Positions 2,135 through 63,736 of a stretch of DNA of 64,000 bases are shown piece by piece. Made by a program: the position numbers and the translations under genes. Within the stretch, counting starts at the first letter, position 1, and each line of letters begins with the position of its first letter. This DNA is from Patescibacteria group bacterium (GTDB lineage Bacteria; Patescibacteriota; Patescibacteriia; UBA9934; GWF2-40-263): contig JBAZTR010000003.1 in assembly GCA_041661745.1 (NCBI GenBank), positions 91,007-155,006 of the forward strand, given 5' to 3'. Under the pieces are notes generated by a model that was not told where the DNA came from, made no database searches, and was given only the letters and a program-made list of their open reading frames with translations.

Positions 2135-2220
2135 TGGTGGGCAGGGAGAGACTCGAACTCTCAATCCTTTTGGGAACTAGCTCCTAAGGCTAGCGCGTAT
2201 ACCAATTCCGCCACCTGCCC
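2135..2220 (-). tRNA. tRNA-Leu (anticodon TAG), long variable arm, CCA encoded
   Basis: Minus strand reads GGGCAGGTGGCGGAATTGGTATACGCGCTAGCCTTAGGAGCTAG...GAGAGTTCGAGTCTCTCCCTGCCCACCA. Anticodon loop CTTAGGA. Close to the E. coli tRNA-Leu architecture. Confidence 0.85.
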
Positions 2221-2242
2221 ATATTTTTTAATTTAAAACAGA

Positions 2243-2365
2243 TAGAGAGACTCGCCCCGCCTTCGGAGGCCTTCGGACGGGGTCCCGCCAAAGGCGGGAA
2301 ACTCTCAATCCTTTTGGGAACTAGCTCCTAAGGCTAGCGCGTATACCAATTCCGCCACTCCAGCG
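2243..2365 (-). pseudogene. Partial/pseudo tRNA-Leu copy with a 45-nt GC-rich insertion in the T-loop and a non-pairing acceptor stem
   Basis: Minus strand repeats the tRNA-Leu sequence TGGCGGAATTGGTATACGCGCTAGCCTTAGGAGCTAGTTCCCAAAAGGATTGAGAGTT, then the insertion TCCCGCCTTTGGCGGGACCCCGTCCGAAGGCCTCCGAAGGCGGGG, then CGAGTCTCTC. The 5' GCTGGAG has no complementary 3' strand. Confidence 0.6.
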
Positions 2366-2418
2366 TTAAAAACAAAAAAATCTTACCTTAATCAGCAAAA
2401 TAATTCAACTCTGGGGAC

Positions 2419-18697: not shown

Positions 18698-18753
18698 TGA
18701 TTAAAACAAAATCCTTGATAAAAAAGACAAAAGATGATAAATTTTCCTCGCGT

Positions 18754-18853
18754 TGGAGAGGTGGCTGAGTGGTCTAATCCCGCCTGGCGTCCCGCTCTGA
18801 GAATTACAGCGGGACTTGGCGGGACCCCGCCAAAGCGAAGCGAAGGCGGGGGG
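18754..18853 (+). repeat. tRNA-Ser 5' fragment (23 nt, identical to the first 23 nt of the downstream tRNA-Ser) followed by a GC-rich double-hairpin element
   Basis: GGAGAGGTGGCTGAGTGGTCTAA, then TCCCGCC-[TGGCGTCCCGCTCTGAGAATTACAGCGGGACTT]-GGCGGGA-CCCCGCCAAAGCGAAGCGAAGGCGGGG. Same stem sequences as the insertion in the tRNA-Leu pseudo-copy. Confidence 0.6.
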
Positions 18854-18865
18854 GCGCTTGTTTCT

Positions 18866-19108
18866 ATGTTTAATACATATATTCTATTTAGTGAAAAGCA
18901 TGATCGTTATTACATCGGATCGACATCAGATATTAATACGCGCCTACAACGACACAATGCTGGAGCAACGGCATCCACTAAACCTTTTCGACCCTGGGTT
19001 CTTGTTTACGAAGAAAAATTCGAAACAAAAACCGAGGCTCGAAAGCGAGAAAATCAAATTAAGAAATATAAAGGAGGTAGAGCTTTTAAAAAGTTAGTCT
19101 CAAGGTAG
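18866..19108 (+). CDS. GIY-YIG nuclease family protein (YhbQ/UPF0213-like)
   Basis: MFNTYILFSEKHDRYYIGSTSDINTRLQRHN...VYEEKF...ARKRENQIKK matches the GIY-YIG/YhbQ fold motifs (YIL...YIG..D...R...HN...E). The track ORF starts upstream in the GC hairpins, so the first ATG after the element is used. Confidence 0.7.
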   Translation: MFNTYILFSEKHDRYYIGSTSDINTRLQRHNAGATASTKPFRPWVLVYEEKFETKTEARKRENQIKKYKGGRAFKKLVSR

Positions 19109-19111
19109 CAC

Positions 19112-19201
19112 GGAGAGGTGGCTGAGTGGTCTAAGGCGCCAGACTCGAAATCTGGTGTACTCGCAAGGGTACCGTGGGTTCAAATCCCACCCTCTCCGCC
19201 A
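19112..19201 (+). tRNA. tRNA-Ser (anticodon CGA), long variable arm, CCA encoded
   Basis: GGAGAGGTGGCTGAGTGGTCTAAGGCGCCAGACTCGAAATCTGGTGTACTCGCAAGGGTACCGTGGGTTCAAATCCCACCCTCTCCGCCA. Confidence 0.9.
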
Positions 19202-24669: not shown

Positions 24670-24999
24670 ATGAACGATTCAAAACTTCTTGCCGCGGCGA
24701 TTGATACGGTAACCGAGGGCTTGACTGTAACCGGCAGTACCGCTGGTTTTTCAAACCAAACACTCATCGATCTTATTCCCGGAGCAATCAATGTTCTTTT
24801 AGGACTTTTGGGAATTGTTGCTTTAGCTTTTACAATCTACGCTGGTATTCTCTACTTAACTTCACAAGGCAATAAAGACGCGGTGGAAAAAGCAAAGAAG
24901 GTTCTTACCTATTCGGCTATTGGCATGGTTCTAATTGTTGCTTCCTATGCCATTTCCAACTATCTCTTAGGCGCTCTAATTTCACTCTTCTCTGAATAG
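24670..24999 (+). CDS. T4SS/VirB2-like pilin family protein (paralog 4)
   Basis: LYLTSQGNKDAVEKAKKVLTYSAIGMVLIVASYAISNY; near-identical core to paralog 5. Confidence 0.5.
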   Translation: MNDSKLLAAAIDTVTEGLTVTGSTAGFSNQTLIDLIPGAINVLLGLLGIVALAFTIYAGILYLTSQGNKDAVEKAKKVLTYSAIGMVLIVASYAISNYLLGALISLFSE

Positions 25000-25056: not shown

Positions 25057-25449
25057 ATGAACAAAATTTTCGCAACAATAGTGGCTTTTGGGCAGGTCTA
25101 TCTACTCTTTCCTCTTATGGCCTCGGCAGCAGTTCCAACCGGTTTGAGCGGAGCCAATACCGGTTTAACAAATATCGCTACCAGCGCTAATATACAGAAC
25201 TCTGGAGATTTAACAGTGTTAATTGGTAAAGGTATCAATGTCATTCTTGGTCTTTTGGGTATCCTGTTCCTGATCTTTGTTCTCTACGCTGGTTTTCTTT
25301 ATTTGACTGCACAAGGTGCTGACGAGCCAGTTAAAAAAGCCAAAAAACTTCTTACTAACTCTATCATTGGTCTGGTTATCATAATTGCGGCCTACGCCAT
25401 TTCCAACTACGTCATTGGAGCGTTGACTTCCATAACCTCCGCTACCTAA
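25057..25449 (+). CDS. T4SS/VirB2-like pilin family protein (paralog 5)
   Basis: LYLTAQGADEPVKKAKKLLTNSIIGLVIIIAAYAISNY. Confidence 0.5.
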   Translation: MNKIFATIVAFGQVYLLFPLMASAAVPTGLSGANTGLTNIATSANIQNSGDLTVLIGKGINVILGLLGILFLIFVLYAGFLYLTAQGADEPVKKAKKLLTNSIIGLVIIIAAYAISNYVIGALTSITSAT

Positions 25450-25456
25450 AAAAATA

Positions 25457-25494
25457 AAACGCGTTTTGACCATTTGGCCAAGACGCGTTTTTTG
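25457..25494. terminator. Terminator hairpin after the pilin array
   Basis: aaacgcgttttgacca-ttt-ggccaagacgcgttt followed by T6. Confidence 0.5.
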
Positions 25495-25559
25495 TTTAAA
25501 CAAATACCCCGGCCCGCAAACATTTCTGTTGCGAACCGGGGGTGACGCTTCCCCACCCT

Positions 25560-26300
25560 CTAGAACGAGGGGGGGACGGAGAGTTCCTGCGGCCCGGGAA
25601 GATCTCCGAAGATTCTCCGGGTGATTTCGCCGGAATCGACCAGCCAGTAGCCGGGCCGACTCTCCGTGACTTCTCGGAGGACGAAGTTGGACGACGCCCC
25701 AGGGGTGCCGATCAACCAGATCGTGCCCTCCCCCGACCAGGTGACCGGGGTGCCGGACATCTCGACCTCGGAGACGCGATCGTCTCCGTTGAAGTTGCCG
25801 ACGACCGTCCGGACCCGACCGAACCGATCGATGACCGGGACGATCCCTTCGGGCCCGGCCACGGTGTAGGTCCGGCCGCGGTCCAGCTGGATCGTGGCGC
25901 AGTGGTCGCACTGCAGCCACCGGACCAGTCCCAGGGGGTTGTAGGAAAACGCCCGGAGCGGCGGGTCCATCATCTCCGGCGCCTGGACACCGCCGACCGG
26001 GAAGGCCGGGGGCATCGGGCGGATGACAGGAACCGGCTCGGGGACGGACGCAGGCTTGGCGGCCACGGCCAACTTGGCCTCGGCCGCGTCCGCGCGCCAC
26101 TGGGCCCACGCGAGGTCGACGGTCTGGATGCAGTCCTGGTCGTCGCCGACGCAGGCCTGCTTCAGCGTCAAGTAGCAGTCGATCGGATCGACCGCTTCCT
26201 TGCACGCCCCGAGCTCGGCCGCGGTGGCGGCGAGGGCGGAGGTGGAGGCGAAGAACGCGATGATGGCCGCGGCGAGGGCGGCGAGGATGGAACGGATCAT
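25560..26300 (-). CDS. Hypothetical secreted protein (high-GC island gene)
   Basis: Signal peptide MIRSILAALAAAIIAFFASTSALA; Cys-containing mature region. Coding GC is far above the window background. Confidence 0.45.
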   Translation of the reverse strand: MIRSILAALAAAIIAFFASTSALAATAAELGACKEAVDPIDCYLTLKQACVGDDQDCIQTVDLAWAQWRADAAEAKLAVAAKPASVPEPVPVIRPMPPAFPVGGVQAPEMMDPPLRAFSYNPLGLVRWLQCDHCATIQLDRGRTYTVAGPEGIVPVIDRFGRVRTVVGNFNGDDRVSEVEMSGTPVTWSGEGTIWLIGTPGASSNFVLREVTESRPGYWLVDSGEITRRIFGDLPGPQELSVPPSF

Positions 26301-26351
26301 GGTGAATCTCCAGAAAACGGAAGGGATGGATTGGATTGGACCGGAGCCAGA

Positions 26352-26789
26352 TTACTCGCCGGACTCCAGGATGACCCGGAAGTCGGCGCGCGACCTCTCG
26401 AGTTCGACTCGCACCTTCTCGAGCTCCAGGAGGAGCTGCCGGTCGATAACGAGCGTTGCACCACGGCTGTCCATGGCCTGGGTCATGCCCGACTGCTGGA
26501 GAGAGACCCAGTCGGTGAGACGGGCTCCCGGCGTGGCGGACCACGCCTCGAACGGGAAGAGCCATCCGCACTGGCTGGGGTTCACCATGCATGCCGCCTG
26601 CGCTTCGGCCAGGGTGTACCTGGCGGAGGCGTCGATCACGACGGCCGCGCCACGGGGCGTGACCGCGCGAGCGGCCGCCTCGAGTTCGCCATTGACTCCC
26701 CGATGCACAGAGACGCACCCGTTGAGGACGAACAGTACGGCGAGAACGAGGACGGAGAGGATGGAACGCATGGATGCTCCTTGGCGCAA
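26352..26789 (-). CDS. Hypothetical lipoprotein (high-GC island gene)
   Basis: Signal peptide with lipobox LNGC (MRSILSVLVLAVLFVLNGC); 145 aa. Confidence 0.45.
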   Translation of the reverse strand: MRQGASMRSILSVLVLAVLFVLNGCVSVHRGVNGELEAAARAVTPRGAAVVIDASARYTLAEAQAACMVNPSQCGWLFPFEAWSATPGARLTDWVSLQQSGMTQAMDSRGATLVIDRQLLLELEKVRVELERSRADFRVILESGE

Positions 26790-27088
26790 TGCACCTGAAC
26801 GGATTGTGGTTGGTTGAGTTGGTTTTCAGGTTGAAAAGAACCGAAGAAGCAGCAAAATTTCCTTTGTTTAGCGGCTTTTTTGGTTCTTCTAAGCTTTCAA
26901 AAGTACTCAATAATATATCACAAAATTGGGGTTTTGTCAAGGCATGCGACTGAAGAATTTATCTAATTTAAGCTAATTTTAGTTCTCCCTCCCTCATATA
27001 ACTCTTGTTTTTTATATGGGGGAGGGATGGGGAGAGGAAAAAATAAAAGCCCCAGCCTGAGTTAACAAGCCGGGGCGAGGAGTCGGGC

Positions 27089-29497
27089 CTAGTGCCCGGA
27101 ACTCCTGAGACAGGTCGCATGGTTCACCGGATCCTGGATCCGGGAACAGTCGATCTGCTTCCGCTTCCCCGAAGGAGTCGAGGCAGCGGGCGGGTGGGAC
27201 GTGGTGGCTGTAGTGGGTGCCACCTGGGAACTGGCGGCCGCGGGCTGGCTGGGCACCGCGGTCGGGGCGGCTGGAGCCGGCTGAACGATCTGGGCCGACG
27301 TGTTCGGGTCGTCGCCGAATCCGAATTTACAGTCAACCAAGAGCGACACGCCGACGATCAGGAACACCAGCGAGCCGAACAGGACGGCCAGAATGGCCAG
27401 GTACGAACCAGCGGCTCGGAAGCCGCGTGCTGTTCCGCTCTGGCTCTCGTCCTGAGCACCGAGAACGGCCAGGAGCAAGCCACCAGCCACAGCCACAGCC
27501 GGCGACACCACCAGGATCCAGGCCCAGAACGTGTGGGAGCAACCCCACATGGAGGGGACCGGAGCCGAGGAGGCAGTCGAGGCCGACTGTCCGCCGATGA
27601 CGCTGGCCAACTCTTCGGCCTGCGCCTTCTTGGCCTTGGCCTTGTCCAGCTCCTCTGGGAACCGGTCAGGCTTCAGGTCGTACGTGAAGTGGCCGAAGCC
27701 ATCCTCACGGACGCGGACTTCCAGAGCCCCCGGGAGGTTGGCGACCAACCGCGCTTCGGAGTAGACATGGCCATTGCTGACCGTGACCATTCCGTGCTTG
27801 GTGGCCGCGACGCCGAAGACCTCCTCGAGGGAGTACTCTCCGTCGTCCGTCTGGTCGTAGGGGTTGGAGTAGACGACCACGAACTCGTTGGTCGTTCCCT
27901 GCACCACCCTGGCCTCAACGGGTTCCCAGGCCCACTCGGTTCGGGCCATGAGAGCCGCTAGCACTGCGAAGAGCGGGATTGCTCCCACCCACGTGACGGT
28001 GCGGAGGAACTTGGACTCCCAGATGTCCATCCTCCTCACTTGGGAGTAGCCGACCACAGCCGCGGTCGACAGCATCGCGGCAACGATCAGGAGAGATCGT
28101 GCCTGAATGCCGCCAGCCAGACCAACTGTGATCAAGCCAACTGCCCCGAAGAAGAGGGTGAAGAACGCCCCGGAGAACCCGAGGTTCCGAAGCCACGGCA
28201 CCGAGGTCGTGGCTGGCGTGACGTTGAAGCCCAACCGCTGTCCGACGATTCGGAACTGATCCATGAACCAGTCCACCAACCCCTGGATGGGGATGAGGAG
28301 GAGCATGGAGATGGTGAGCAACACGGTGCCGGCCATCCACTTCCAGAGCTGGCCGTGGTACCAGCCGTCCAAGAAGAACATCTCGGCCGACCAGTAGGTG
28401 AAGCGCAGGTAGCCGTAGCCCAGAAGCCCGATCACGAGGAGCAAAATCCCGAAGATTCCAGCCACGACCGCGACGACCGCCTTCCAGTTCCTTTCGGAAA
28501 TCCAGTGAGAGATCCTGTCCGTGGCCGTGTCGAGGTGCCCGGCGAGCCTGTCCTTGAGGCGCGGATTGAACACCGCGTCCACCCGGCGCACGAAGCGCTG
28601 GTAGAGGTCGTTGGTCGGCTCGACGCCCTTCGTTCCTTCATTCAGAAGGTCCTTGAGCAAGCGGATCTTGCTCCAAGCATCCTCCTCGAAGGCACGCTGG
28701 ACGAGAGCCGCAGCCAGGCCCCTCTCGGACATGGCGCGGTCGACCAGGCGCCCGAAGACCCAGCGTTCCTCCTCGGACAGGGTGTCCTCGAAGGCCTTGG
28801 GCTTGGGCGGATCGATCGACGACGAGGAGCCGGCTCCGGTCATGAGGATCTTGACCAACGAGCCACCGCAGCACGGGCAGATCCGAAGACCCGTCTGCTT
28901 AGCGATTGCCTCCCAGTCAGCCTCATCGACGCGATACTTCTGGGCCGGACGGATAACCGTCTTCTTCGGCGACTTGGGATTGCTCATATCGACCGTGGCC
29001 ACCTCGGTGTTGGCCAACTCGAAAGCAGCGGTCCGCTGCAAGAGCTCGGCACACTTGCTTGTGGTGTGAAGGCCCATGGCGGCCGGCTCGATCCAGTACT
29101 TGTCCGGAGCCAACGGCTCCTTGGCCTTGGCATCGCTGCCGGCCTTGACCTTGATCTTGTCGGTCATCTCCTTGGTGAAGTCCAACCAGGACTTGGCACC
29201 ACCGACGACGACCGACTCGAGGATCTCGGTGAGGTACGGCTCGAAGACCGCCCCGATGGGGCCGATCTTGCGGAGGGCCGCCCTGACCGGCTCCTTGAAG
29301 GCTCCGGCCGTGGCTCCGGCACCGGCGATGACGCTCCACTTGGCCGGCTCCGGCATATTTGAGATGGCCACAGCCAGATTCTCGAGAGTCGGCGACTTGG
29401 TGATGGCCGAGGCCCCGAGGTGGGCGATGATCGCCTCACCGGTCTCGGAGATGGCAGTGGAGAGAGCAGCGGAGGAAACGGAAGATGCGGTAGACAT
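27089..29497 (-). CDS. Large hypothetical polytopic membrane protein with a CPCCGG zinc-ribbon-like motif and a Pro/Ala/Thr-rich C-terminal tail (high-GC island gene)
   Basis: Start set at MSTASSVSS after a long 5' UTR that begins at an AT-rich TTGACA-17-TATAAAT promoter (minus strand, about 29640-29670). More than 8 hydrophobic helices. No family assigned. Confidence 0.5.
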   Translation of the reverse strand: MSTASSVSSAALSTAISETGEAIIAHLGASAITKSPTLENLAVAISNMPEPAKWSVIAGAGATAGAFKEPVRAALRKIGPIGAVFEPYLTEILESVVVGGAKSWLDFTKEMTDKIKVKAGSDAKAKEPLAPDKYWIEPAAMGLHTTSKCAELLQRTAAFELANTEVATVDMSNPKSPKKTVIRPAQKYRVDEADWEAIAKQTGLRICPCCGGSLVKILMTGAGSSSSIDPPKPKAFEDTLSEEERWVFGRLVDRAMSERGLAAALVQRAFEEDAWSKIRLLKDLLNEGTKGVEPTNDLYQRFVRRVDAVFNPRLKDRLAGHLDTATDRISHWISERNWKAVVAVVAGIFGILLLVIGLLGYGYLRFTYWSAEMFFLDGWYHGQLWKWMAGTVLLTISMLLLIPIQGLVDWFMDQFRIVGQRLGFNVTPATTSVPWLRNLGFSGAFFTLFFGAVGLITVGLAGGIQARSLLIVAAMLSTAAVVGYSQVRRMDIWESKFLRTVTWVGAIPLFAVLAALMARTEWAWEPVEARVVQGTTNEFVVVYSNPYDQTDDGEYSLEEVFGVAATKHGMVTVSNGHVYSEARLVANLPGALEVRVREDGFGHFTYDLKPDRFPEELDKAKAKKAQAEELASVIGGQSASTASSAPVPSMWGCSHTFWAWILVVSPAVAVAGGLLLAVLGAQDESQSGTARGFRAAGSYLAILAVLFGSLVFLIVGVSLLVDCKFGFGDDPNTSAQIVQPAPAAPTAVPSQPAAASSQVAPTTATTSHPPAASTPSGKRKQIDCSRIQDPVNHATCLRSSGH

Positions 29498-29714
29498 GGG
29501 ATTTCTTTCCGTGCGCTTTAAAGGCGCGTTTTGTTGTGAAGGGACATGGTTCCGCTCATTTTGCCAATCGTGGGGCAACCCCAACAGACGGCGAGACGGA
29601 AAATTGCCCTCTATACGGCCTTGTGGGCACGCACGGAGAACGTGTATTTATATCATATTTTTAAAGATTTGTCAACCGTGTTTCCCTCCATTTTTCGCTT
29701 AAATTAAACAAAAA

Positions 29715-29750
29715 ACCGCAACAAACGTATTTTTGTTTGCTGCGGAATCC
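29715..29750 (-). terminator. Rho-independent terminator for the oxidoreductase operon
   Basis: Minus strand reads ccgcagcaaac-aaaaatac-gtttgttgcgg-tttttt. Confidence 0.55.
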
Positions 29751-29760
29751 TAAAAAACCC

Positions 29761-30909
29761 TTATTTTCCCATCATTTTCAAAATTCGCTCACGTTCGGAA
29801 TTCTTGTTAATCATGGTCGCGCCAATAACCTTTCCCGCTTTAGAAAAAATCTGCAAAACCCCACCTGCGGCTGTATTTCCTTCAACTTTAATCTCATCAG
29901 CCCACTCGCGGTCAGTATCACCAAGAAAAATAGCATCAAGGCCTAAAAGACTCATGGGAGAGGTGGTAATTTGTTCAAATTTTTCCGTTTGACCAAAAAT
30001 ATTTCTGGCGGCAATTCGCCCCTGGGCTTGGGCCGCGGCCCAGGTTCCTATAATTCTATTTCTTCCGGAATGAACATCAAAAACTTCAGCCACGTCCCCA
30101 ATAGCGTAGACACCAGGGAGATTGGTTTCCATTTTTTCGTTCACAACAATTCCCTTCTCTGTTTTTAAACCGGAATCGCTAAGCCACGCGGTGTCCGGAT
30201 CAAGGCCAATGCCGACACCAAGAATTTTACAATCAAAATTTCCTTTATCGGTTTCTACGCCACTAATTTCCGTGTCACCTTGCAGACCAATAAATTTTGC
30301 CTCCGGCAAAACTTTGATTCCGTTTTTTTCCAGTTGTTGATTAATCAACTTGCCGCTTTCTTCATCAAGCACGCGCGACCAAAAATATTTTCCACGAAAA
30401 GCCACGGTAATATCCAAACCAAAATTTTTAAAAACATTTATAAATTCGCAACCAATCAAACCGCCACCATAAACGCCAACCGAACATGGTCGCGGTTGTT
30501 CGGAAACAAGCTGTTGCAGGTGATCAGCATCATCAAGTGTCCAAAGATAAGCCACCCCGCGGCGATCTTCCGGCAACGGTCTGGTGTTTCGTCCACCGGC
30601 AATAACCAATTTATCAAACGGAAGTTCGCGACCATTGGACAATAAAACAAAAGAATTTTTTACATCAACTTTTTCCACGCGTTCACCGGAAATCCATTCA
30701 ATATTATTTTCCGCGTACCAATTTTCTGTTTTCAAAAATACTCGTTCACGCGGCACTTTTCCTTTTAAATAGTGCGGCAAAAGTACCCGCGAATAAAGCG
30801 GATGATGTTCTTCGGAAACTAGTGTAATTTCGGCTTGCGGGTCGAATTTTCTAAGCTCTTCCGCACAAGTAGTGCCGGCAATGCCGCCGCCAACGATAAT
30901 AATTTTCAT
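29761..30909 (-). CDS. FAD/NAD(P)-binding pyridine nucleotide-disulfide-type oxidoreductase
   Basis: MKIIIVGGGIAGTTCAEEL Rossmann dinucleotide-binding motif and a second GG motif mid-protein. Confidence 0.7.
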   Translation of the reverse strand: MKIIIVGGGIAGTTCAEELRKFDPQAEITLVSEEHHPLYSRVLLPHYLKGKVPRERVFLKTENWYAENNIEWISGERVEKVDVKNSFVLLSNGRELPFDKLVIAGGRNTRPLPEDRRGVAYLWTLDDADHLQQLVSEQPRPCSVGVYGGGLIGCEFINVFKNFGLDITVAFRGKYFWSRVLDEESGKLINQQLEKNGIKVLPEAKFIGLQGDTEISGVETDKGNFDCKILGVGIGLDPDTAWLSDSGLKTEKGIVVNEKMETNLPGVYAIGDVAEVFDVHSGRNRIIGTWAAAQAQGRIAARNIFGQTEKFEQITTSPMSLLGLDAIFLGDTDREWADEIKVEGNTAAGGVLQIFSKAGKVIGATMINKNSERERILKMMGK

Positions 30910-59090: not shown

Positions 59091-59720
59091 TTACCACTTC
59101 CAAAATTCTTCATCCGCACCGTTCTCTTCTTCCCCCTCGCCCTCAGGGAGAGGGGTTAGGGGAGAGGGTTTTTCAACCAATATCTCGCCACCTTTAGGTG
59201 GATGCATGGGACCGCGGCGGATTGGGCCGATAAGGAATTTCTTTCCATTTTCTGACATGTTTATGTAATGATCGGCCGCTTCAACCAGTTTGGCTGAGGT
59301 GGTTTCGCGGAAGCTCATGACCTCAACTATCCGACCACGATTTTTAGCATAATCAACCAAAGCCGTAAAGTCACCGTCGCCCGAGACTAAAACCACTACA
59401 TCTAACATATCAAGCATACGAACAATGTCGATGGTTAGGCCAACATCCCAATCGGCCTTCTTTTGACCGGATTCGTATTGCATTAATTCCTTTTCGCGGG
59501 TTTCGATTCCCAAGTTTTGCAGGGCGTCGAGGAAAGGTTTTTCATCTTCTGACTTAGTGCGAACCACATAAGCAATGGCGCGAATTAGTTTGCGATCACC
59601 GACCGCTTCTTTAACAATGTTGCCAAAATTAACCTTGCGCGCAAAAACATTGCGGGCGCTGTAATACATGTTTTGGGTGTCGATGAAAACACCGACGCGT
59701 TGATTGGGGTGGCTTATCAT
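59091..59720 (-). CDS. NYN-domain (LabA-like) protein
   Basis: VGVFIDTQNMYY...VVLVSGDGDFTALV PIN-like NYN signature. Confidence 0.7.
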   Translation of the reverse strand: MISHPNQRVGVFIDTQNMYYSARNVFARKVNFGNIVKEAVGDRKLIRAIAYVVRTKSEDEKPFLDALQNLGIETREKELMQYESGQKKADWDVGLTIDIVRMLDMLDVVVLVSGDGDFTALVDYAKNRGRIVEVMSFRETTSAKLVEAADHYINMSENGKKFLIGPIRRGPMHPPKGGEILVEKPSPLTPLPEGEGEEENGADEEFWKW

Positions 59721-59869
59721 ATTTAAGGGTTTTGAAGGGTTGGGAAGTGTTCTGAAGGGTTAAGAAGGGCTTTGGAATATTTATATTAAAGAAATATAGT
59801 TCAATTAACCCTTCCAAACCCTTTAAAGCTCTTCAGAGCCCTTCATTTAATTGGGGAGGGCTTTGGATT
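59721..59869. repeat. Palindromic element copy A built from 10-bp phased GAAGGGTT-type repeats around an AT-rich centre
   Basis: Left arm ttGAAGGGTT gGGAAGTGTT cTGAAGGGTT aAGAAGGGCT ttggaatatt; centre tatattaaagaaatatagttcaatt; right arm is the inverse (aacccttccaaaccctttaaagctcttcagagcccttca). About 85% identical to copy B. Confidence 0.7.
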
Positions 59870-60220
59870 TTAAATACTTCTGATTAGTTGGTTTAAGAAG
59901 AAGCTAGTATTTTTCGCTTTCAATTCCAATTTTTTAAATTTATCTTCGTCTATATATTTTTGTCTATAAGAGAAACTTATCAGAAAAATCGTTTCTGTTA
60001 AAGAGGCGCGGGCTATTACCAAGAATCTTTTGAAATCCTGTTTGGTTCCCCGCGAGTGACCTTCGACAATATTTAAGACAACTGAAAGGGCGGCACGTCT
60101 TAATTGTGATGTAACATTGTACTGTTCCTCTTTTGGAAAAAAGAATGTTGCCGTGTAAATGTTTTCCAACAAATCATCGGCTTTCTGCCAAACTAAAAGG
60201 TTTTCGTAAGGATACTTCAT
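59870..60220 (-). CDS. Four-helix-bundle protein (TIGR02436; 23S rRNA intervening-sequence protein family)
   Basis: YENLLVWQKADDLLENIYTATFFFPKEEQYNVTSQLRRAALSVVLNIVEG is the family signature. Start set at MKYP; the longer track ORF runs into repeat copy B. Confidence 0.7.
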   Translation of the reverse strand: MKYPYENLLVWQKADDLLENIYTATFFFPKEEQYNVTSQLRRAALSVVLNIVEGHSRGTKQDFKRFLVIARASLTETIFLISFSYRQKYIDEDKFKKLELKAKNTSFFLNQLIRSI

Positions 60221-60345
60221 ATCGTGTTTGGAAGTGTCTTGAAGTGTTGGGAAGGGCTTTGGAATATTTATATTAAAGAAATTTAGTTCAATAACCCTTC
60301 TAAACCCTTTTAAGCCCTTCAGAACCCTTCCTAACCCTTTAAAAA
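60221..60345. repeat. Palindromic element copy B (same family as 59721-59869)
   Basis: gtttggaagtgtcttgaagtgttgggaagggctttggaatatttatattaaagaaatttagttcaataacccttctaaacccttttaagcccttcagaacccttcctaaccc. Confidence 0.7.
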
Positions 60346-62461: not shown

Positions 62462-63531
62462 ACCCCCACTTTAAAATTGCAGGTGTCGCCATCGCGCATT
62501 GTGTAATTTTTTCCTTCAGTGCGTAATTTGCCGGCTTCGCGCGCGCCAGATTCACCAAGCTCAACAAAATCTTTCCAGTCAATAATCTCGGCACAGATAA
62601 AAGCCTTTTCAAAATCCGTGTGAATAACACCGGCCGCCTGTGGGGCTTTAGTCCCCTTCTTAATAGTCCAAGCGCGAGATTCTTTTTCGCCAGAAGTTAA
62701 GAAAGTAATAAGGTCGAGGAGTTCGTAGCACTTCAAAATCATGCGGTCGAGGCCGGAACGACTTAGACCAAGCGACTCGAGGAAAGTTTTTTGTTCCTCG
62801 GCTGGCATTTCCATTATTTCTGATTCTATTTTTACGCTTAAGGGTAAAGCTAAACGATCGGGACCAAGCGGACTTTGCCAATTCGGATCAGCCGCAGAAG
62901 CCTCGTCAACATTGATAACGTAAAGCACTGGCTTGAGGGTTAGAAGTTGCATTCCTTTGATGGCTTTTTGTTCATCTTCGGAAAGTTCAACCAGACGAGC
63001 CTGCTTTCCAGCTTGAATAGCAAGATTTATTTTTTCCAAAGCACTGGCCTCTTCTTCTTTTTCTTTAGTCTTGCCAGCTTTCAATTCACCTTGCAGGCTA
63101 TGGAGACGTTTTTGAACAACATCAAGGTCAGCCATGGCTAATTCTAATTCAATAATTTCCACGTCCCTGATCGGATCAACATCGCCGCTAACATGGTGGA
63201 CATTCGGATCCTTGAAAGCGCGTACCACATGGGCAATCATGTCGACCTCGCGGATGTTGGCCAAGAATTTGTTTCCAAGCCCCTCGCCTTTATGTGCCCC
63301 GGCCACCAAGCCGGCGATGTCGACAAACTCGATGGCCGTGGTGATGGTCTTTTGTGATTTGGAAACTCGTGACAGGGCTTGTAGGCGCTCGTCGGGAACT
63401 TCAACAATACCAACGTTCGGTTCGATGGTGCAGAAAGGAAAGTTTTCACAAGGCACCTGTTTTTTAGTCAGGGTTTTGAAAAGGGTGGATTTGCCAACGT
63501 TGGGCAGGCCGACGATGCCGACTTGTAGCAT
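62458..63531 (-). CDS. ychF: Ribosome-binding ATPase YchF (Obg-family GTPase)
   Basis: GIVGLPNVGKSTLF G1 motif, the TGS domain C-terminus ...RDGDTCNFKVGV; 357 aa. Confidence 0.9.
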   Translation of the reverse strand: MLQVGIVGLPNVGKSTLFKTLTKKQVPCENFPFCTIEPNVGIVEVPDERLQALSRVSKSQKTITTAIEFVDIAGLVAGAHKGEGLGNKFLANIREVDMIAHVVRAFKDPNVHHVSGDVDPIRDVEIIELELAMADLDVVQKRLHSLQGELKAGKTKEKEEEASALEKINLAIQAGKQARLVELSEDEQKAIKGMQLLTLKPVLYVINVDEASAADPNWQSPLGPDRLALPLSVKIESEIMEMPAEEQKTFLESLGLSRSGLDRMILKCYELLDLITFLTSGEKESRAWTIKKGTKAPQAAGVIHTDFEKAFICAEIIDWKDFVELGESGAREAGKLRTEGKNYTMRDGDTCNFKVGV

Positions 63532-63534
63532 AGG

Positions 63535-63592
63535 AGGGTTTGGAAGGGTTTAGAAGAGTTAAGAAGGGCTGGGAAGGGCTTTGTGTCGATTG
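63535..63592. repeat. Third (partial) copy of the phased GAAGGGTT decamer repeat, upstream of ychF
   Basis: GGAAGGGTTT AGAAGAGTTA AGAAGGGCTG GGAAGGGCTT then tgtgtcgat; the 13-mer gctttgtgtcgat also sits at 60648-60660 upstream of rpsO. Confidence 0.55.
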
Positions 63593-63660
63593 ATAATATA
63601 GCTTTTTGCGGTAATTATGTCGAGAAACAAAAAACGGCCATTTCTATTATGGTCGTTTTT

Positions 63661-63736
63661 TGGTGGACCGTAACGGGATCGAACCGTTGACCTCTTCCAT
63701 GCCATGGAAGCGCTCTACCAGCTGAGCTAACGGCCC
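63661..63736 (-). tRNA. tRNA-Ala (anticodon GGC) with the G3:U70 identity pair, CCA encoded
   Basis: Minus strand reads GGGCCGTTAGCTCAGCTGGTAGAGCGCTTCCATGGCATGGAAGAGGTCAACGGTTCGATCCCGTTACGGTCCACCA. Confidence 0.85.

What the first reader, a model, noticed from the sequence alone, without database searches (positions are those of the whole stretch)
2243..2365. Tandem pseudo-copy of tRNA-Leu(TAG) carrying the same GC-rich element inside its T-loop
Immediately upstream (tRNA orientation) of the intact tRNA-Leu(TAG) lies a second copy covering D-arm, anticodon arm (same TAG anticodon), variable arm and T-stem. Its T-loop is split by the 45-nt insertion TCCCGCCTTTGGCGGGACCCCGTCCGAAGGCCTCCGAAGGCGGGG, and its acceptor 5' strand (GCTGGAG) has no complementary 3' strand. 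The insertion shares both stem sequences with the element at the tRNA-Ser/GIY-YIG locus. This links the two loci and suggests insertion with duplication rather than simple gene duplication.
Basis: seen in the sequence. Interest (0 to 1): 0.6.

Follow-up and report, generated by a model that had tools for sequence, protein, structure and literature searches.

The report
Hairpin-split tRNA-Leu stump from mobile element
The second "tRNA-Leu" is a dead, 3'-truncated remnant of a different tRNA-Leu allele, split by a GC-rich double hairpin that belongs to a widespread and apparently undescribed family of tRNA-gene-invading hairpin/GIY-YIG-nuclease elements that keep the tRNA working by leaving a full copy beside the broken one.

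Summary
Upstream of the intact tRNA-Leu(TAG) (2135-2220, minus strand) lies a copy of tRNA positions 7-65 (2245-2358). It is 100% identical to the gene and is split between T55 and C56 by a 45-nt double hairpin (DH, 2255-2299). Its 5' acceptor strand, GCTGGAG, has no partner. ARAGORN does not call it, Infernal scores it below threshold, and removing the DH does not restore a tRNA.

It is not a simple duplicate. Relatives 87-88% identical in the flanking hydrolase have an empty site with only the GGGCAGG gene. GCTGGAG is the acceptor of an alternative tRNA-Leu(TAG) allele that is intact in another relative, where the GGGCAAG allele is the stump.

The DH is a family. It occurs at 85 sites in moderate-GC (<0.60) loci of Patescibacteria, Omnitrophota, Planctomycetia and others. 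Of these, 40% abut tRNA sequence, against 2.9% of random positions. The usual layout is [tRNA part][hairpin][3-17 nt more tRNA][spacer or 80-aa GIY-YIG gene][intact tRNA].

In 55 of 76 metagenomic loci, this Slx1/UPF0213-type nuclease gene is followed directly by a tRNA. The window's tRNA-Ser locus is the nuclease-bearing form; the Leu locus is a nuclease-less form. Mobility driven by the nuclease is inferred, not shown.

The parts
2135..2220 (-). Intact tRNA-Leu(TAG) with encoded CCA (copy D); acceptor GGGCAGG/CCTGCCC
   Evidence: ARAGORN; Rfam tRNA 60.3 bits. Its acceptor strands are the same as in the single genes of empty-site relatives L201-L204; its core matches L204's apart from one D-loop base (AATTGG vs AACTGG), whereas L201-203 also have a different variable arm.
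2221..2244 (-). 24-nt AT-rich spacer (TATCTGTTTTAAATTAAAAAATAT) between stump and gene
   Evidence: Spacers of similar sequence and length (21-27 nt) occupy the same place in L114, L115 and L117 (compared by eye).
2245..2254 (-). b': 10 nt continuing the tRNA after the hairpin (CGAGTCTCTC, tRNA positions 56-65); the stump ends here and has no 3' acceptor strand
   Evidence: Identical to 2146-2155. Equivalent 3-17 nt pieces follow the hairpin in most related loci.
2255..2299 (-). 45-nt GC-rich double hairpin (DH): TCCCGCC-TTT-GGCGGGA followed by CCCCGTC-loop-GGCGGGG
   Evidence: The single-sequence MFE fold instead pairs the 5' arm with the 3' arm as one long hairpin: -26.8 kcal/mol, z = -2.46. 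The two-hairpin reading rests on the arm sequences, the Ser-locus fold, the alignment and the family model. CM R1 scores 57.3 bits. Same arms as 18778-18851. Family found in genome contigs.
2300..2358 (-). Stump core: tRNA positions 7-55, 100% identical to 2156-2214
   Evidence: the repeat finder family D4; alignment A1.
2358..2364 (-). Orphan 5' acceptor strand GCTGGAG of the stump, from a different tRNA-Leu(TAG) allele
   Evidence: No complementary strand follows the stump, and no 3' half exists elsewhere in the window. The same 7-mer is the acceptor of the intact gene in L117.
2380..2408 (-). Probable native promoter of the tRNA-Leu locus (TTGAAT-17 nt-TAAGAT), now upstream of the stump
   Evidence: Read from the sequence. 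It matches 8 of 12 positions and falls below the scan threshold. The same gtcaag..TTGAAA..TAnnAT block precedes the single tRNA in empty-site relatives and the stump in filled ones.
18715..18743 (+). Promoter-like site (TTGATA-17-TAAATT, preceded by TG) in front of the tRNA-Ser stump
18755..18777 (+). 23-nt 5' stump of tRNA-Ser(CGA), identical to 19112-19134
   Evidence: the repeat finder family D13.
18778..18851 (+). The same double hairpin, with a further hairpin nested in the first loop
   Evidence: Fold -46.7 kcal/mol, z = -5.08 (computed on 18778-18852). CM R1 39.6 bits. Hairpin scan.
18853..18857 (+). b' of the Ser locus: GGCGC, continuing tRNA-Ser after the hairpin
   Evidence: Read from the sequence.
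18866..19108 (+). 80-aa stand-alone GIY-YIG nuclease gene of the UPF0213/Slx1 type
   Evidence: Pfam PF01541, 7e-18. PDB profile hits 1zg2, 1ywl and SLX1. AF2 model pLDDT 94.8; Foldseek top hits UPF0213 and Slx1. Catalytic Tyr, Arg, His and Glu are conserved in 30 homologs.
19112..19201 (+). Intact tRNA-Ser(CGA), starting 3 nt after the nuclease stop codon
   Evidence: ARAGORN and Rfam, 61.7 bits.

Best explanation
Region 2245-2364 is a non-functional stump of a tRNA-Leu(TAG) gene. It covers positions 1-65 of an allele with acceptor GCTGGAG/CTCCAGC and carries a 45-nt double-hairpin module in its T-loop. It lies between the locus's native promoter and the working tRNA-Leu(TAG).

It is the nuclease-less form of a modular element whose complete form sits at the tRNA-Ser locus of the same window: [tRNA 5' part][hairpin module][a few more tRNA bases][80-aa Slx1/UPF0213-type GIY-YIG nuclease gene][intact tRNA].

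Proposed mechanism (inferred). The nuclease breaks a cognate tRNA gene at a position specific to each clade. The break is repaired by recombination with an element-bearing copy. The stump serves as the left homology arm and the intact tRNA as the right arm. The module is copied in, and the tRNA stays functional because a whole copy comes with it, not because anything is spliced out. The old 5' part remains as a hairpin-disrupted stump.

At the Leu locus one of two things happened: the nuclease gene was lost, or the hairpin was mobilised in trans, possibly by the Ser-locus nuclease, which is next to the same hairpin arms. Later gene conversion made the stump's core identical to the gene. The stump and hairpin are now probably only a 5' leader of the tRNA-Leu precursor, removed by RNase P.

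Shown: the anatomy, the family, the tRNA and nuclease associations, presence/absence among relatives, and the allele mismatch. Inferred: nuclease-driven mobility, trans-mobilisation and transcription.
For: The stump is not a tRNA.

The hairpin is a family. There are 122 hits to the pattern, 85 of them in loci with GC below 0.60, from Patescibacteria, Omnitrophota, Planctomycetia, uncultured Gammaproteobacteria and others. Of the 85, 34 abut tRNA sequence, against 58 of 2000 random positions in the same loci.

The architecture recurs, including T-loop junctions GGTT|C identical to the window's (L011, L038, L053, L090, L092).

Sampling by the nuclease gives the same picture. In 55 of 76 loci a same-strand tRNA starts within 150 nt of the stop codon. 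In 42 of 54 of those, an exact piece of at least 10 nt of that tRNA lies upstream of the ORF; in most (about 30 of the 42) a GC-rich palindromic hairpin follows it, and the exceptions are mostly whole upstream tRNAs or hairpin-less cases. The mirror-image form also exists. Nuclease clades co-segregate with tRNA species, junction position and hairpin type.

The nuclease keeps its catalytic residues and is nearest to UPF0213 and Slx1.

At the Leu locus, relatives at 87-88% and at 74% hydrolase identity have empty sites. Relatives at 82-88% have stump, hairpin and gene behind the same promoter. A second, independent insertion sits in the D-loop in L221. Stump and gene carry different alleles and swap roles. 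The hairpin arms stay complementary through changes such as TCCGCC/GGCGGA and CCTGCC/GGCAGG in L114; 98% of cells are paired and 9 of 14 pairs have changes on both sides.

There is a precedent. The GIY-YIG endonuclease SegB, encoded in a phage tRNA cluster, drives tandem amplification of tRNA+segB units by recombination (PMC13096335; PMC2330249).
Against: No nuclease activity, target or mobility has been demonstrated.

The 80-aa protein is a bare catalytic domain with no DNA-binding domain, unlike known GIY-YIG homing enzymes.

The intact tRNA next to the element still carries the presumed target, so immunity to self-cleavage is unexplained.

The 3-17 nt of tRNA retained after the hairpin is unexplained, and no target-site duplication flanks the hairpin.

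In simple homing the stump should carry the resident acceptor strand. In the window, L114 and L115 it carries the foreign one, so extra steps are needed.

Spacers of only 4-8 nt in some nuclease-less loci (L026, L052, L221) argue against simple loss of the ORF.

About half of the DH copies elsewhere are not next to a tRNA. The hairpin orientation is inverted in the tRNA-Gln clade.

The stump sequence is very well conserved among four lineages, which could also mean that it has a function.
Confidence: 0.68

Rival explanations
1. An ordinary tandem duplication of tRNA-Leu was followed by an independent insertion of a MITE-like GC hairpin into the redundant copy, which then decayed. No nuclease is involved. 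The link to tRNA stumps arises because insertions into single-copy tRNA genes are lethal and are never seen.
For: The hairpin is multi-copy in some genomes, and many copies are not in tRNAs. No nuclease gene lies at the Leu locus. In relatives the stump has collected further unrelated hairpin insertions, as a neutral target would.
Against: The five differences between stump and gene all fall in the 7-nt acceptor strand, with none in the other 68 nt. They spell the acceptor of another real allele. Decay would scatter them.

The 3' truncation 3-17 nt after the hairpin recurs across phyla and tRNA species. In the metagenome contigs (nuclease-sampled) loci, stumps accompany the nuclease gene in 42 of 54 loci with a downstream tRNA. 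Tandem tRNA duplicates are otherwise rare in these small genomes.
Confidence: 0.15
2. The stump plus hairpin is a functional RNA or DNA element kept by selection. It could be a structured 5' leader controlling tRNA-Leu expression, or a tRNA-like decoy with an intact anticodon arm.
For: The stump core differs by only 1-2 nt among four lineages. In those lineages the neighbouring hydrolase is 82-88% identical, and the working genes have changed their T stem or variable arm. Both T-stem strands are retained around the hairpin. The hairpin arms covary.
Against: Close relatives lack it entirely (L201-L204). Stumps of very different lengths (9-65 nt) and tRNA species share only the hairpin. The stump tolerates three extra insertions in L114. 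Recent horizontal spread or gene conversion also explains the conservation.
Confidence: 0.08
3. It is a real second tRNA-Leu gene with an intervening sequence in the T-loop (a BHB-type or other intron), or one half of a split tRNA.
For: The insertion is clean and lies in a loop. Both T-stem strands are present. Rfam gives 28.0 bits, just under threshold.
Against: No 3' acceptor strand follows, and there is no CTCCAGC-ACCA partner anywhere in the window (matches at chance level). Excising the hairpin gives no ARAGORN tRNA here, and does so in only 1 of 122 family members. No group I or II intron model matches. The genome is bacterial (Patescibacteria).
Confidence: 0.01
4. It is an att-type duplication left by an integrase-mediated island or prophage that integrated into the tRNA gene.
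For: tRNA genes are classical integration sites, and a partial tRNA copy flanks inserted DNA.
Against: The inserted DNA is only 144 nt. There is no integrase among the neighbours, which are a hydrolase, an acetyltransferase, an unknown 293-aa ORF and an LTD protein. The 5' part is duplicated, not the 3' part. The DH pattern has no exact match on viral contigs, and only 12 mostly weak or partial GIY-YIG relatives occur there.
Confidence: 0.02

Closest known systems
Free-standing GIY-YIG homing endonucleases in tRNA clusters (phage T4/T6 SegB)
   Same: Both have a GIY-YIG nuclease gene embedded among tRNA genes. SegB cleaves within tRNA genes, spreads by recombination, and drives tandem duplication of tRNA+nuclease units (PMC2330249; PMC13096335).
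   Different: SegB is a two-domain enzyme on a phage. Here the protein is an 80-aa bare catalytic domain of the UPF0213/Slx1 clade on bacterial chromosomes. It always comes with a tRNA stump and a palindromic hairpin, which are not described for Seg genes.
Mobile GIY-YIG ORFs of fungal mitochondria that duplicate part of the host gene
   Same: Function is kept by bringing a replacement gene segment, and the displaced fragment stays behind as a pseudo-copy. This comparison rests on my own knowledge of Allomyces atp6 and related cases. The mitogenome papers listed were retrieved on the terms 'GIY-YIG' and 'partial duplication', but I did not read them.
   Different: Those elements sit in protein-coding genes and displace the 3' end. 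Here the target is a tRNA gene and usually the 5' end is left behind. The organisms and the nuclease clade differ.
Mitochondrial GC clusters and double-hairpin elements; bacterial REP, RPE and MITE-type palindromic repeats
   Same: All are short GC-rich hairpin or double-hairpin modules scattered in an AT-richer genome. They are multi-copy in some hosts, can sit inside genes, and keep arm complementarity through compensatory changes (papers listed).
   Different: No sequence relationship was tested or is expected. REPs go with RAYT transposases, whereas this hairpin goes with a GIY-YIG gene. No terminal repeats with target-site duplication were seen. The strong tie to tRNA stumps is not a feature of those families.
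Slx1 / UPF0213 (BH0048, EF2693, YhbQ-like) structure-specific GIY-YIG nucleases
   Same: These are the best sequence and fold matches (1zg2 3e-13; Slx1 TM 0.69-0.73). Slx1 cuts branched DNA, which suggests that the palindromic hairpin or an extruded tRNA-gene cruciform could be the substrate.
   Different: No partner such as Slx4 and no RING domain is present. The function of bacterial UPF0213 proteins is unknown. Any link to tRNA genes is not described in the papers searched.
Group I introns with homing endonucleases in bacterial tRNA genes; archaeal BHB introns and split tRNAs
   Same: The target is a tRNA gene and the insertion lies in a loop.
   Different: There is no ribozyme (45 nt, no Rfam match). 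The exons are not complete, because the 3' acceptor strand is missing. Function is restored by a second gene copy, not by splicing.

Membership tests
Functional bacterial tRNA gene | Seven-base-pair acceptor stem closing the cloverleaf | tested here: not met
   5' strand GCTGGAG against 3' TATCTGT. There is no CTCCAGC partner in the window.
Functional bacterial tRNA gene | Recognised by tRNA models at their thresholds | tested here: not met
   Rfam RF00005 gives 28.0 bits against 29, with the T arm skipped. ARAGORN makes no call, with or without the hairpin.
Intron-containing tRNA (group I, or archaeal BHB type) | Removing the intervening sequence leaves a complete tRNA | tested here: not met
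   Excision with +/-2 nt of slack gives no tRNA here, and does so in only 1 of 122 family members (L079).
Intron-containing tRNA (group I, or archaeal BHB type) | Ribozyme core or BHB motif at the junctions | tested here: not met
   No intron family in Rfam matches, even at E up to 10. The insert is 45 nt of two plain hairpins. A BHB motif was not searched for specifically.
Free-standing homing-endonuclease cassette | Encodes a nuclease of a homing-endonuclease superfamily | tested here: met
   Met at the Ser locus: PF01541 at 7e-18, with catalytic residues conserved. Not met at the Leu locus itself, which has no ORF between 2221 and 2364.
Free-standing homing-endonuclease cassette | Filled and empty alleles of the same site among related genomes | tested here: met
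   At the Leu locus, L201-204 and L118-120 are empty. The window, L114, L115 and L117 are filled behind the same promoter. This was not tested for the nuclease-bearing Ser locus because the look-ups were exhausted.
Free-standing homing-endonuclease cassette | Separate DNA-binding domain that gives a long, specific target | tested here: not met
   The 80-aa protein is entirely the catalytic domain. Even so, nuclease clades track one tRNA species and position each.
Free-standing homing-endonuclease cassette | The enzyme cleaves the empty allele and repair copies the cassette | not testable with these tools
   This needs biochemistry or genetics.
MITE / REP-like palindromic repeat | Many dispersed copies of a short structured unit in one genome | tested here: inconclusive
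   The window holds only 2 copies in 64 kb. Other genomes have many contigs with copies, at least 8 in DeMMO3_36, WY5.bin104 and a Uhrbacteria MAG.
MITE / REP-like palindromic repeat | Terminal inverted repeats with a target-site duplication, or an associated RAYT/transposase | tested here: not met
   The flanks of the hairpin are not repeated. The associated gene is a GIY-YIG nuclease, not a transposase. A RAYT gene was not searched for.
Integrase-type tRNA att duplication | Recombinase gene and island between the repeats; the 3' end of the tRNA is duplicated | tested here: not met
   The insert is 144 nt with no recombinase nearby, and the 5'/core part is duplicated.
UPF0213 / Slx1-type GIY-YIG nucleases (the Ser-locus protein) | Sequence and fold similarity to UPF0213 and the Slx1 nuclease domain | tested here: met
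   1zg2 3.2e-13, 1ywl 6.7e-12, SLX1 about 1e-6; I-TevI only 2e-3. Foldseek ranks 1zg2 and Slx1 first.

The most novel reading that the evidence does not exclude
The double hairpin and the 80-aa Slx1/UPF0213-type GIY-YIG gene define an undescribed, widespread class of selfish elements. They occur in Patescibacteria, Omnitrophota, Planctomycetota and others. They invade tRNA genes at clade-specific positions and keep the host viable by duplicating or replacing the gene rather than by splicing. Each invasion leaves a hairpin-marked tRNA stump.

The palindromic hairpin would be the structure that the domain-less nuclease recognises. Successive invasions would drive turnover of tRNA acceptor-stem alleles. 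Once stump and gene carry different acceptors, excision by recombination yields a dead hybrid tRNA, such as the one in contig L001, so the insertion becomes locked in.
Probability: 0.4. Interest if true: 0.8.

Novelty: new variant of a known kind. Interest (0 to 1): 0.68.

Why it matters
If the family is what it appears to be, four things follow.
- It gives a biological role to part of a large nuclease family of unknown function (UPF0213/COG2827).
- It adds a third way for a selfish element to live inside an essential RNA gene: replacement, alongside splicing and 3'-end restoration.
- It explains stray tRNA fragments and odd "tRNA" calls in genomes of uncultured bacteria.
- It suggests that such elements push tRNA acceptor-stem alleles to turn over between close relatives.

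There is also a practical point. The stump can cause mis-assembly or hybrid tRNA calls, as in contig L001, and N-terminally extended nuclease ORF calls.

Tried and rejected
Intron or split-tRNA reading. I excised the hairpin with slack and re-ran ARAGORN. I searched Rfam at permissive thresholds. I searched the window for a 3' half. All were negative.

Phage origin. The hairpin pattern has no match on viral contigs, and the nuclease family has only 12 mostly weak matches there. There was no PHROG hit and only weak PADLOC hits.

Campbell-type single crossover and simple tandem duplication. I worked both through by hand against the sequence. Neither reproduces a stump with a foreign acceptor directly behind the native promoter. 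I left the history unresolved.

Spacer as a remnant of the nuclease ORF. The spacer is too short (24 nt, AT-rich) to test.

nhmmer with a tRNA profile to find stumps. This was less sensitive than blastn-short: 13 against 34 abutting hits.

Literature. Eight full-text searches found no description of the hairpin, of tRNA stumps beside GIY-YIG genes, or of a tRNA link for UPF0213. Subscription journals are not covered.

Strand preference of the hairpin. The G.T wobble bias and the inverted orientation in the Gln clade point in opposite directions, so this is inconclusive.
Full report
**1. The observation**

ARAGORN and Rfam find one tRNA-Leu(TAG) at 2135-2220 on the minus strand, at 60.3 bits. 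Read on that strand, a second copy lies just upstream.
- 59 nt (2300-2358) are 100% identical to 2156-2214 (family D4).
- 10 more nt, CGAGTCTCTC (2245-2254), equal 2146-2155.

Together they cover tRNA positions 7-65. They are separated, exactly between T55 and C56, by the 45 nt TCCCGCCTTTGGCGGGACCCCGTCCGAAGGCCTCCGAAGGCGGGG (2255-2299).

The seven bases before the copy read GCTGGAG instead of GGGCAGG. The seven after it read TATCTGT instead of CCTGCCC, so no acceptor stem can form.

Rfam's tRNA model gives 28.0 bits against a threshold of 29, and only by skipping the T arm. ARAGORN makes no call, even after the 45 nt are removed. No CTCCAGC-ACCA 3' half exists elsewhere in the window.

The insert consists of two adjacent GC hairpins: TCCCGCC/GGCGGGA and CCCCGTC/GGCGGGG. 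The element at 18778-18851, beside the tRNA-Ser stump and the GIY-YIG gene, has the same arms and the same junction, GGCGGGACCCCG. That 12-mer occurs exactly twice in the window. The arm pattern is 30-fold over expectation. A covariance model of the pair finds only these two sites in the 64 kb.

**2. It is not a private accident**

I scanned one genome per species for both hairpins. The scan returned 122 hits to the pattern. Thirty-seven are in loci with GC of 0.60 or higher; the actinomycete ones among them (Streptomyces, Nocardia, Actinomadura and the like) are probably chance, but this group also holds multi-copy, evidently real members from Binatia and WY5.bin104 (GC 0.61-0.66). The other 85 are in genomes of moderate GC: Patescibacteria, Omnitrophota, Planctomycetia, uncultured Gammaproteobacteria and unclassified MAGs. 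Several of these genomes have many copies.

Thirty-four of the 85 abut tRNA sequence directly, against 58 of 2000 (2.9%) random positions in the same loci.

The junctions recur:
- after position 12 (TAGCT|CAGT);
- after positions 21-23 in class II tRNAs, as at the window's Ser locus;
- after positions 34-38 in the anticodon loop;
- after position 55 (GGTT|C), as at the window's Leu locus.

Reading the loci shows one architecture: [tRNA 5' part][hairpin][4-12 nt that continue the tRNA][short spacer or a GIY-YIG ORF][intact tRNA of the same kind]. A mirror form also exists: [intact tRNA][GIY-YIG][few nt][hairpin][3' part of the tRNA].

Removing the hairpin restores a complete tRNA in only 1 of 122 cases. 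These are stumps, not interrupted genes.

**3. The nuclease**

The ORF at 18866-19108 is an 80-aa stand-alone GIY-YIG domain (Pfam 7e-18). The catalytic Tyr, Arg, His and Glu are conserved in 30 homologs.

By sequence profile and by predicted fold (pLDDT 94.8) it is nearest to the UPF0213 proteins BH0048 and EF2693 and to the nuclease domain of Slx1, a structure-specific enzyme. I-TevI and UvrC are more distant.

I then sampled metagenome contigs by this protein rather than by the hairpin.
- A same-strand tRNA begins within 150 nt of the stop codon in 55 of 76 loci.
- In 42 of 54 of those, an exact piece of at least 10 nt of that same tRNA, usually from position 1, lies upstream of the ORF. 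In most of these (about 30 of the 42) it is followed by a GC-rich palindromic hairpin or double hairpin of 19-104 nt, then 3-17 nt more of the tRNA, then a short leader and the ATG; the exceptions are mostly whole upstream tRNAs or cases with no detectable hairpin.

Hairpin sequences differ between groups: TCCCGCC.., TCCCGAT.., CCTGCCTGCCGGCAGGCAGG, TCCGGC.. and others. They remain palindromic, and most begin TCCCG and end CGGGA.

Nuclease clades co-segregate with one tRNA species, one junction position and one hairpin type. That is the pattern expected of site-specific selfish nucleases that diversify onto new targets.

The hairpin pattern has no match on viral contigs, and only 12 mostly weak or partial relatives of the nuclease occur there.

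**4. The tRNA-Leu locus in relatives**

I used the flanking hydrolase (1537-2127) to fetch orthologous loci.

| Locus | Hydrolase identity to window | State of the site |
|---|---|---|
| L201-203 | 88% | Empty; single gene GGGCAGG..CCTGCCC |
| L204 | 87% | Empty; single gene, same acceptor; core differs from the window's gene at one D-loop base (AACTGG vs AATTGG) |
| L118-120 | 74% | Empty; single gene GGGCGAG..CTCGCCC |
| L114 | 88% | Stump GCTGGAG + hairpin + gene GGGCAGA |
| L115/116 | 83% | Stump GCTGGAG + hairpin + gene GGGCAAG |
| L117 | 82% | Stump GGGCAAG + hairpin + gene GCTGGAG..CTCCAGC |

In the empty sites the single gene sits directly behind a conserved promoter block. In L114, L115/116 and L117 the same promoter is followed by a stump, a T-loop double hairpin, about 10 nt of T arm, a similar 21-27-nt spacer and an intact gene.

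Three points matter.
- **The stump's orphan strand is a real allele.** GCTGGAG is the acceptor of an allele that is intact in L117, where it also has its own T-loop, TTCAAAT.
- **The roles swap.** In L117 the stump is the GGGCAAG allele and the gene is GCTGGAG. In its sister L115 it is the reverse. In a third clade, L220 has a single GCCGAGG gene, while L221 has a GCCGAGG stump with a different hairpin in the D-loop, followed by a GGGCGGG gene.
- **The hairpin arms change by compensation.** In L114 they are TCCGCC/GGCGGA and CCTGCC/GGCAGG. Across model-aligned sites, 98% of cells pair and 9 of 14 pairs show changes on both sides. That alignment was fitted to the model.

The 144-nt block in the window is therefore an insertion relative to empty relatives. 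The stump is a piece of another allele, not a copy of the neighbouring gene.

All 5 differences between stump and gene lie in the 7-nt acceptor strand, and none in the other 68 nt. This fits gene conversion of the core after the event.

Among 18 loci of this architecture, the four that keep the nuclease gene have a stump identical to the gene. Most long nuclease-less stumps differ from their gene. That is consistent with nuclease-less loci being older or being products of allele replacement.

**5. How it most likely works**

Shown:
- the anatomy;
- the family;
- the statistical ties to tRNA genes and to the nuclease;
- filled and empty sites;
- the allele mismatch.

Inferred, in order:
1. The nuclease breaks a cognate tRNA gene.
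2. Recombination with an element-bearing copy repairs the break. The stump provides homology on the left and the intact tRNA on the right.
3. The module is copied in together with a full or 5' tRNA segment, so tRNA function is preserved by replacement rather than by splicing.
4. The old 5' part stays behind the native promoter as a stump.

A promoter-like site lies just upstream of the Ser stump, and only 3 nt separate the nuclease stop from tRNA-Ser. The nuclease and the tRNA are therefore probably co-transcribed from the tRNA promoter. The Leu stump plus hairpin would then be a 5' leader that RNase P removes.

The Slx1-like fold and the missing DNA-binding domain suggest that the palindromic hairpin, or a cruciform of the tRNA gene, is what the enzyme recognises. 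The shared arms at the two loci of this window fit an autonomous copy (Ser) and a non-autonomous copy (Leu).

There is a precedent. The GIY-YIG endonuclease SegB sits in the phage T4/T6 tRNA cluster, cuts tRNA genes, and drives recombination-dependent tandem amplification of tRNA+segB units (PMC2330249; PMC13096335). [quoted passage not shown]

**6. What does not fit**

- The intact tRNA still carries the presumed target.
- The few tRNA bases kept after the hairpin are unexplained, and there is no target-site duplication.
- In simple homing the stump should carry the resident acceptor, yet in the window it carries the foreign one.
- Some nuclease-less loci have spacers of only 4-8 nt.
- About half of the hairpin copies elsewhere are not near a tRNA.
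- The hairpin is inverted in the tRNA-Gln clade, although G.T wobbles favour one strand.
- The stump is unusually well conserved, so a function cannot be excluded.

**7. Comparison and novelty**

The closest known kinds are:
- free-standing GIY-YIG homing genes in tRNA clusters (Seg);
- mitochondrial GIY-YIG ORFs that duplicate part of their host gene;
- GC-cluster, double-hairpin, REP and MITE-type palindromic repeats.

None combines a bare UPF0213/Slx1-type nuclease, a palindromic hairpin and a tRNA stump. Eight full-text searches found no description of this combination. I rate the family a new variant of known kinds. The specific feature at 2245-2364 is a nuclease-less relic of it.

**8. 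A caution**

Contig L001 comes from another assembly and encodes the same flanking proteins. It has a single hybrid gene, GCTGGAG + core + CCTGCCCACCA, which equals the window minus one 144-nt unit. This is either a real stump-by-gene recombinant with a dead tRNA or an assembler collapse. Read mapping would decide.

Noticed in passing
L001:2908-2993 (ENA ERZ27249449 k141_223521), corresponding to window 2135-2364: A contig with the same flanking proteins carries one hybrid tRNA-Leu: GCTGGAG + core + CCTGCCCACCA. This equals the window minus one 144-nt repeat unit. ARAGORN calls it although the acceptor cannot pair. It is either a real recombinant or an assembly collapse.
   Followed up: partly
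window 18734-19108: A 124-aa ORF reads in frame from upstream of the tRNA-Ser stump, through the hairpin, into the GIY-YIG gene. Database homolog P0123 (122 aa, named 'Excinuclease abc c subunit domain protein') has a similar N-terminal extension. These are probably mis-called starts caused by the element.
   Followed up: partly
window 59716-59830, 60213-60343, 63525-63593: Arrays with 10-nt periodicity (GAAGGGTTnn) face inverted AACCCTTC partners across an AT-rich centre. There are three copies. The last lies about 70 nt from tRNA-Ala (63661-63736). This looks like another small palindromic repeat family.
   Followed up: no
window 26000-30000: A GC-rich island (0.58-0.63 against about 0.44) holds two long minus-strand ORFs, 27089-29584 (831 aa) and 25219-26940 (573 aa). 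Neither has a Pfam match. It may be foreign DNA.
   Followed up: partly
window 24836-24983 and 25283-25430: A 148-nt direct repeat at 70% identity, 447 nt apart, lies just upstream of the GC-rich island.
   Followed up: no
L114:about 1070-1310; L117:about 1100-1300: The tRNA-Leu stump in relatives has collected further GC hairpin insertions. L114 has three (in the acceptor strand, D-loop and T-loop). L117 has a 68-nt D-loop insert containing the motif cgacgagctacgg, which also flanks hairpin copies in L031 and L094.
   Followed up: partly
L032:1790-2300; L038:1050-1340: L032 has a tandem array of [tRNA-Glu 19-38][hairpin][39-78] units behind an intact tRNA-Glu and a GIY-YIG gene. L038 has one tRNA-Val stump carrying two hairpin copies, after positions 12 and 55.
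   Followed up: no
L015, L065, L080, L103 (Omnitrophota): Here the double hairpin has conserved extensions (gattg on the left; cttcggcacgctcgaatcttacggtgcctcgcaaagac on the right). The right-hand block is often repeated on both sides. This is a larger composite repeat that is not next to a tRNA.
   Followed up: no
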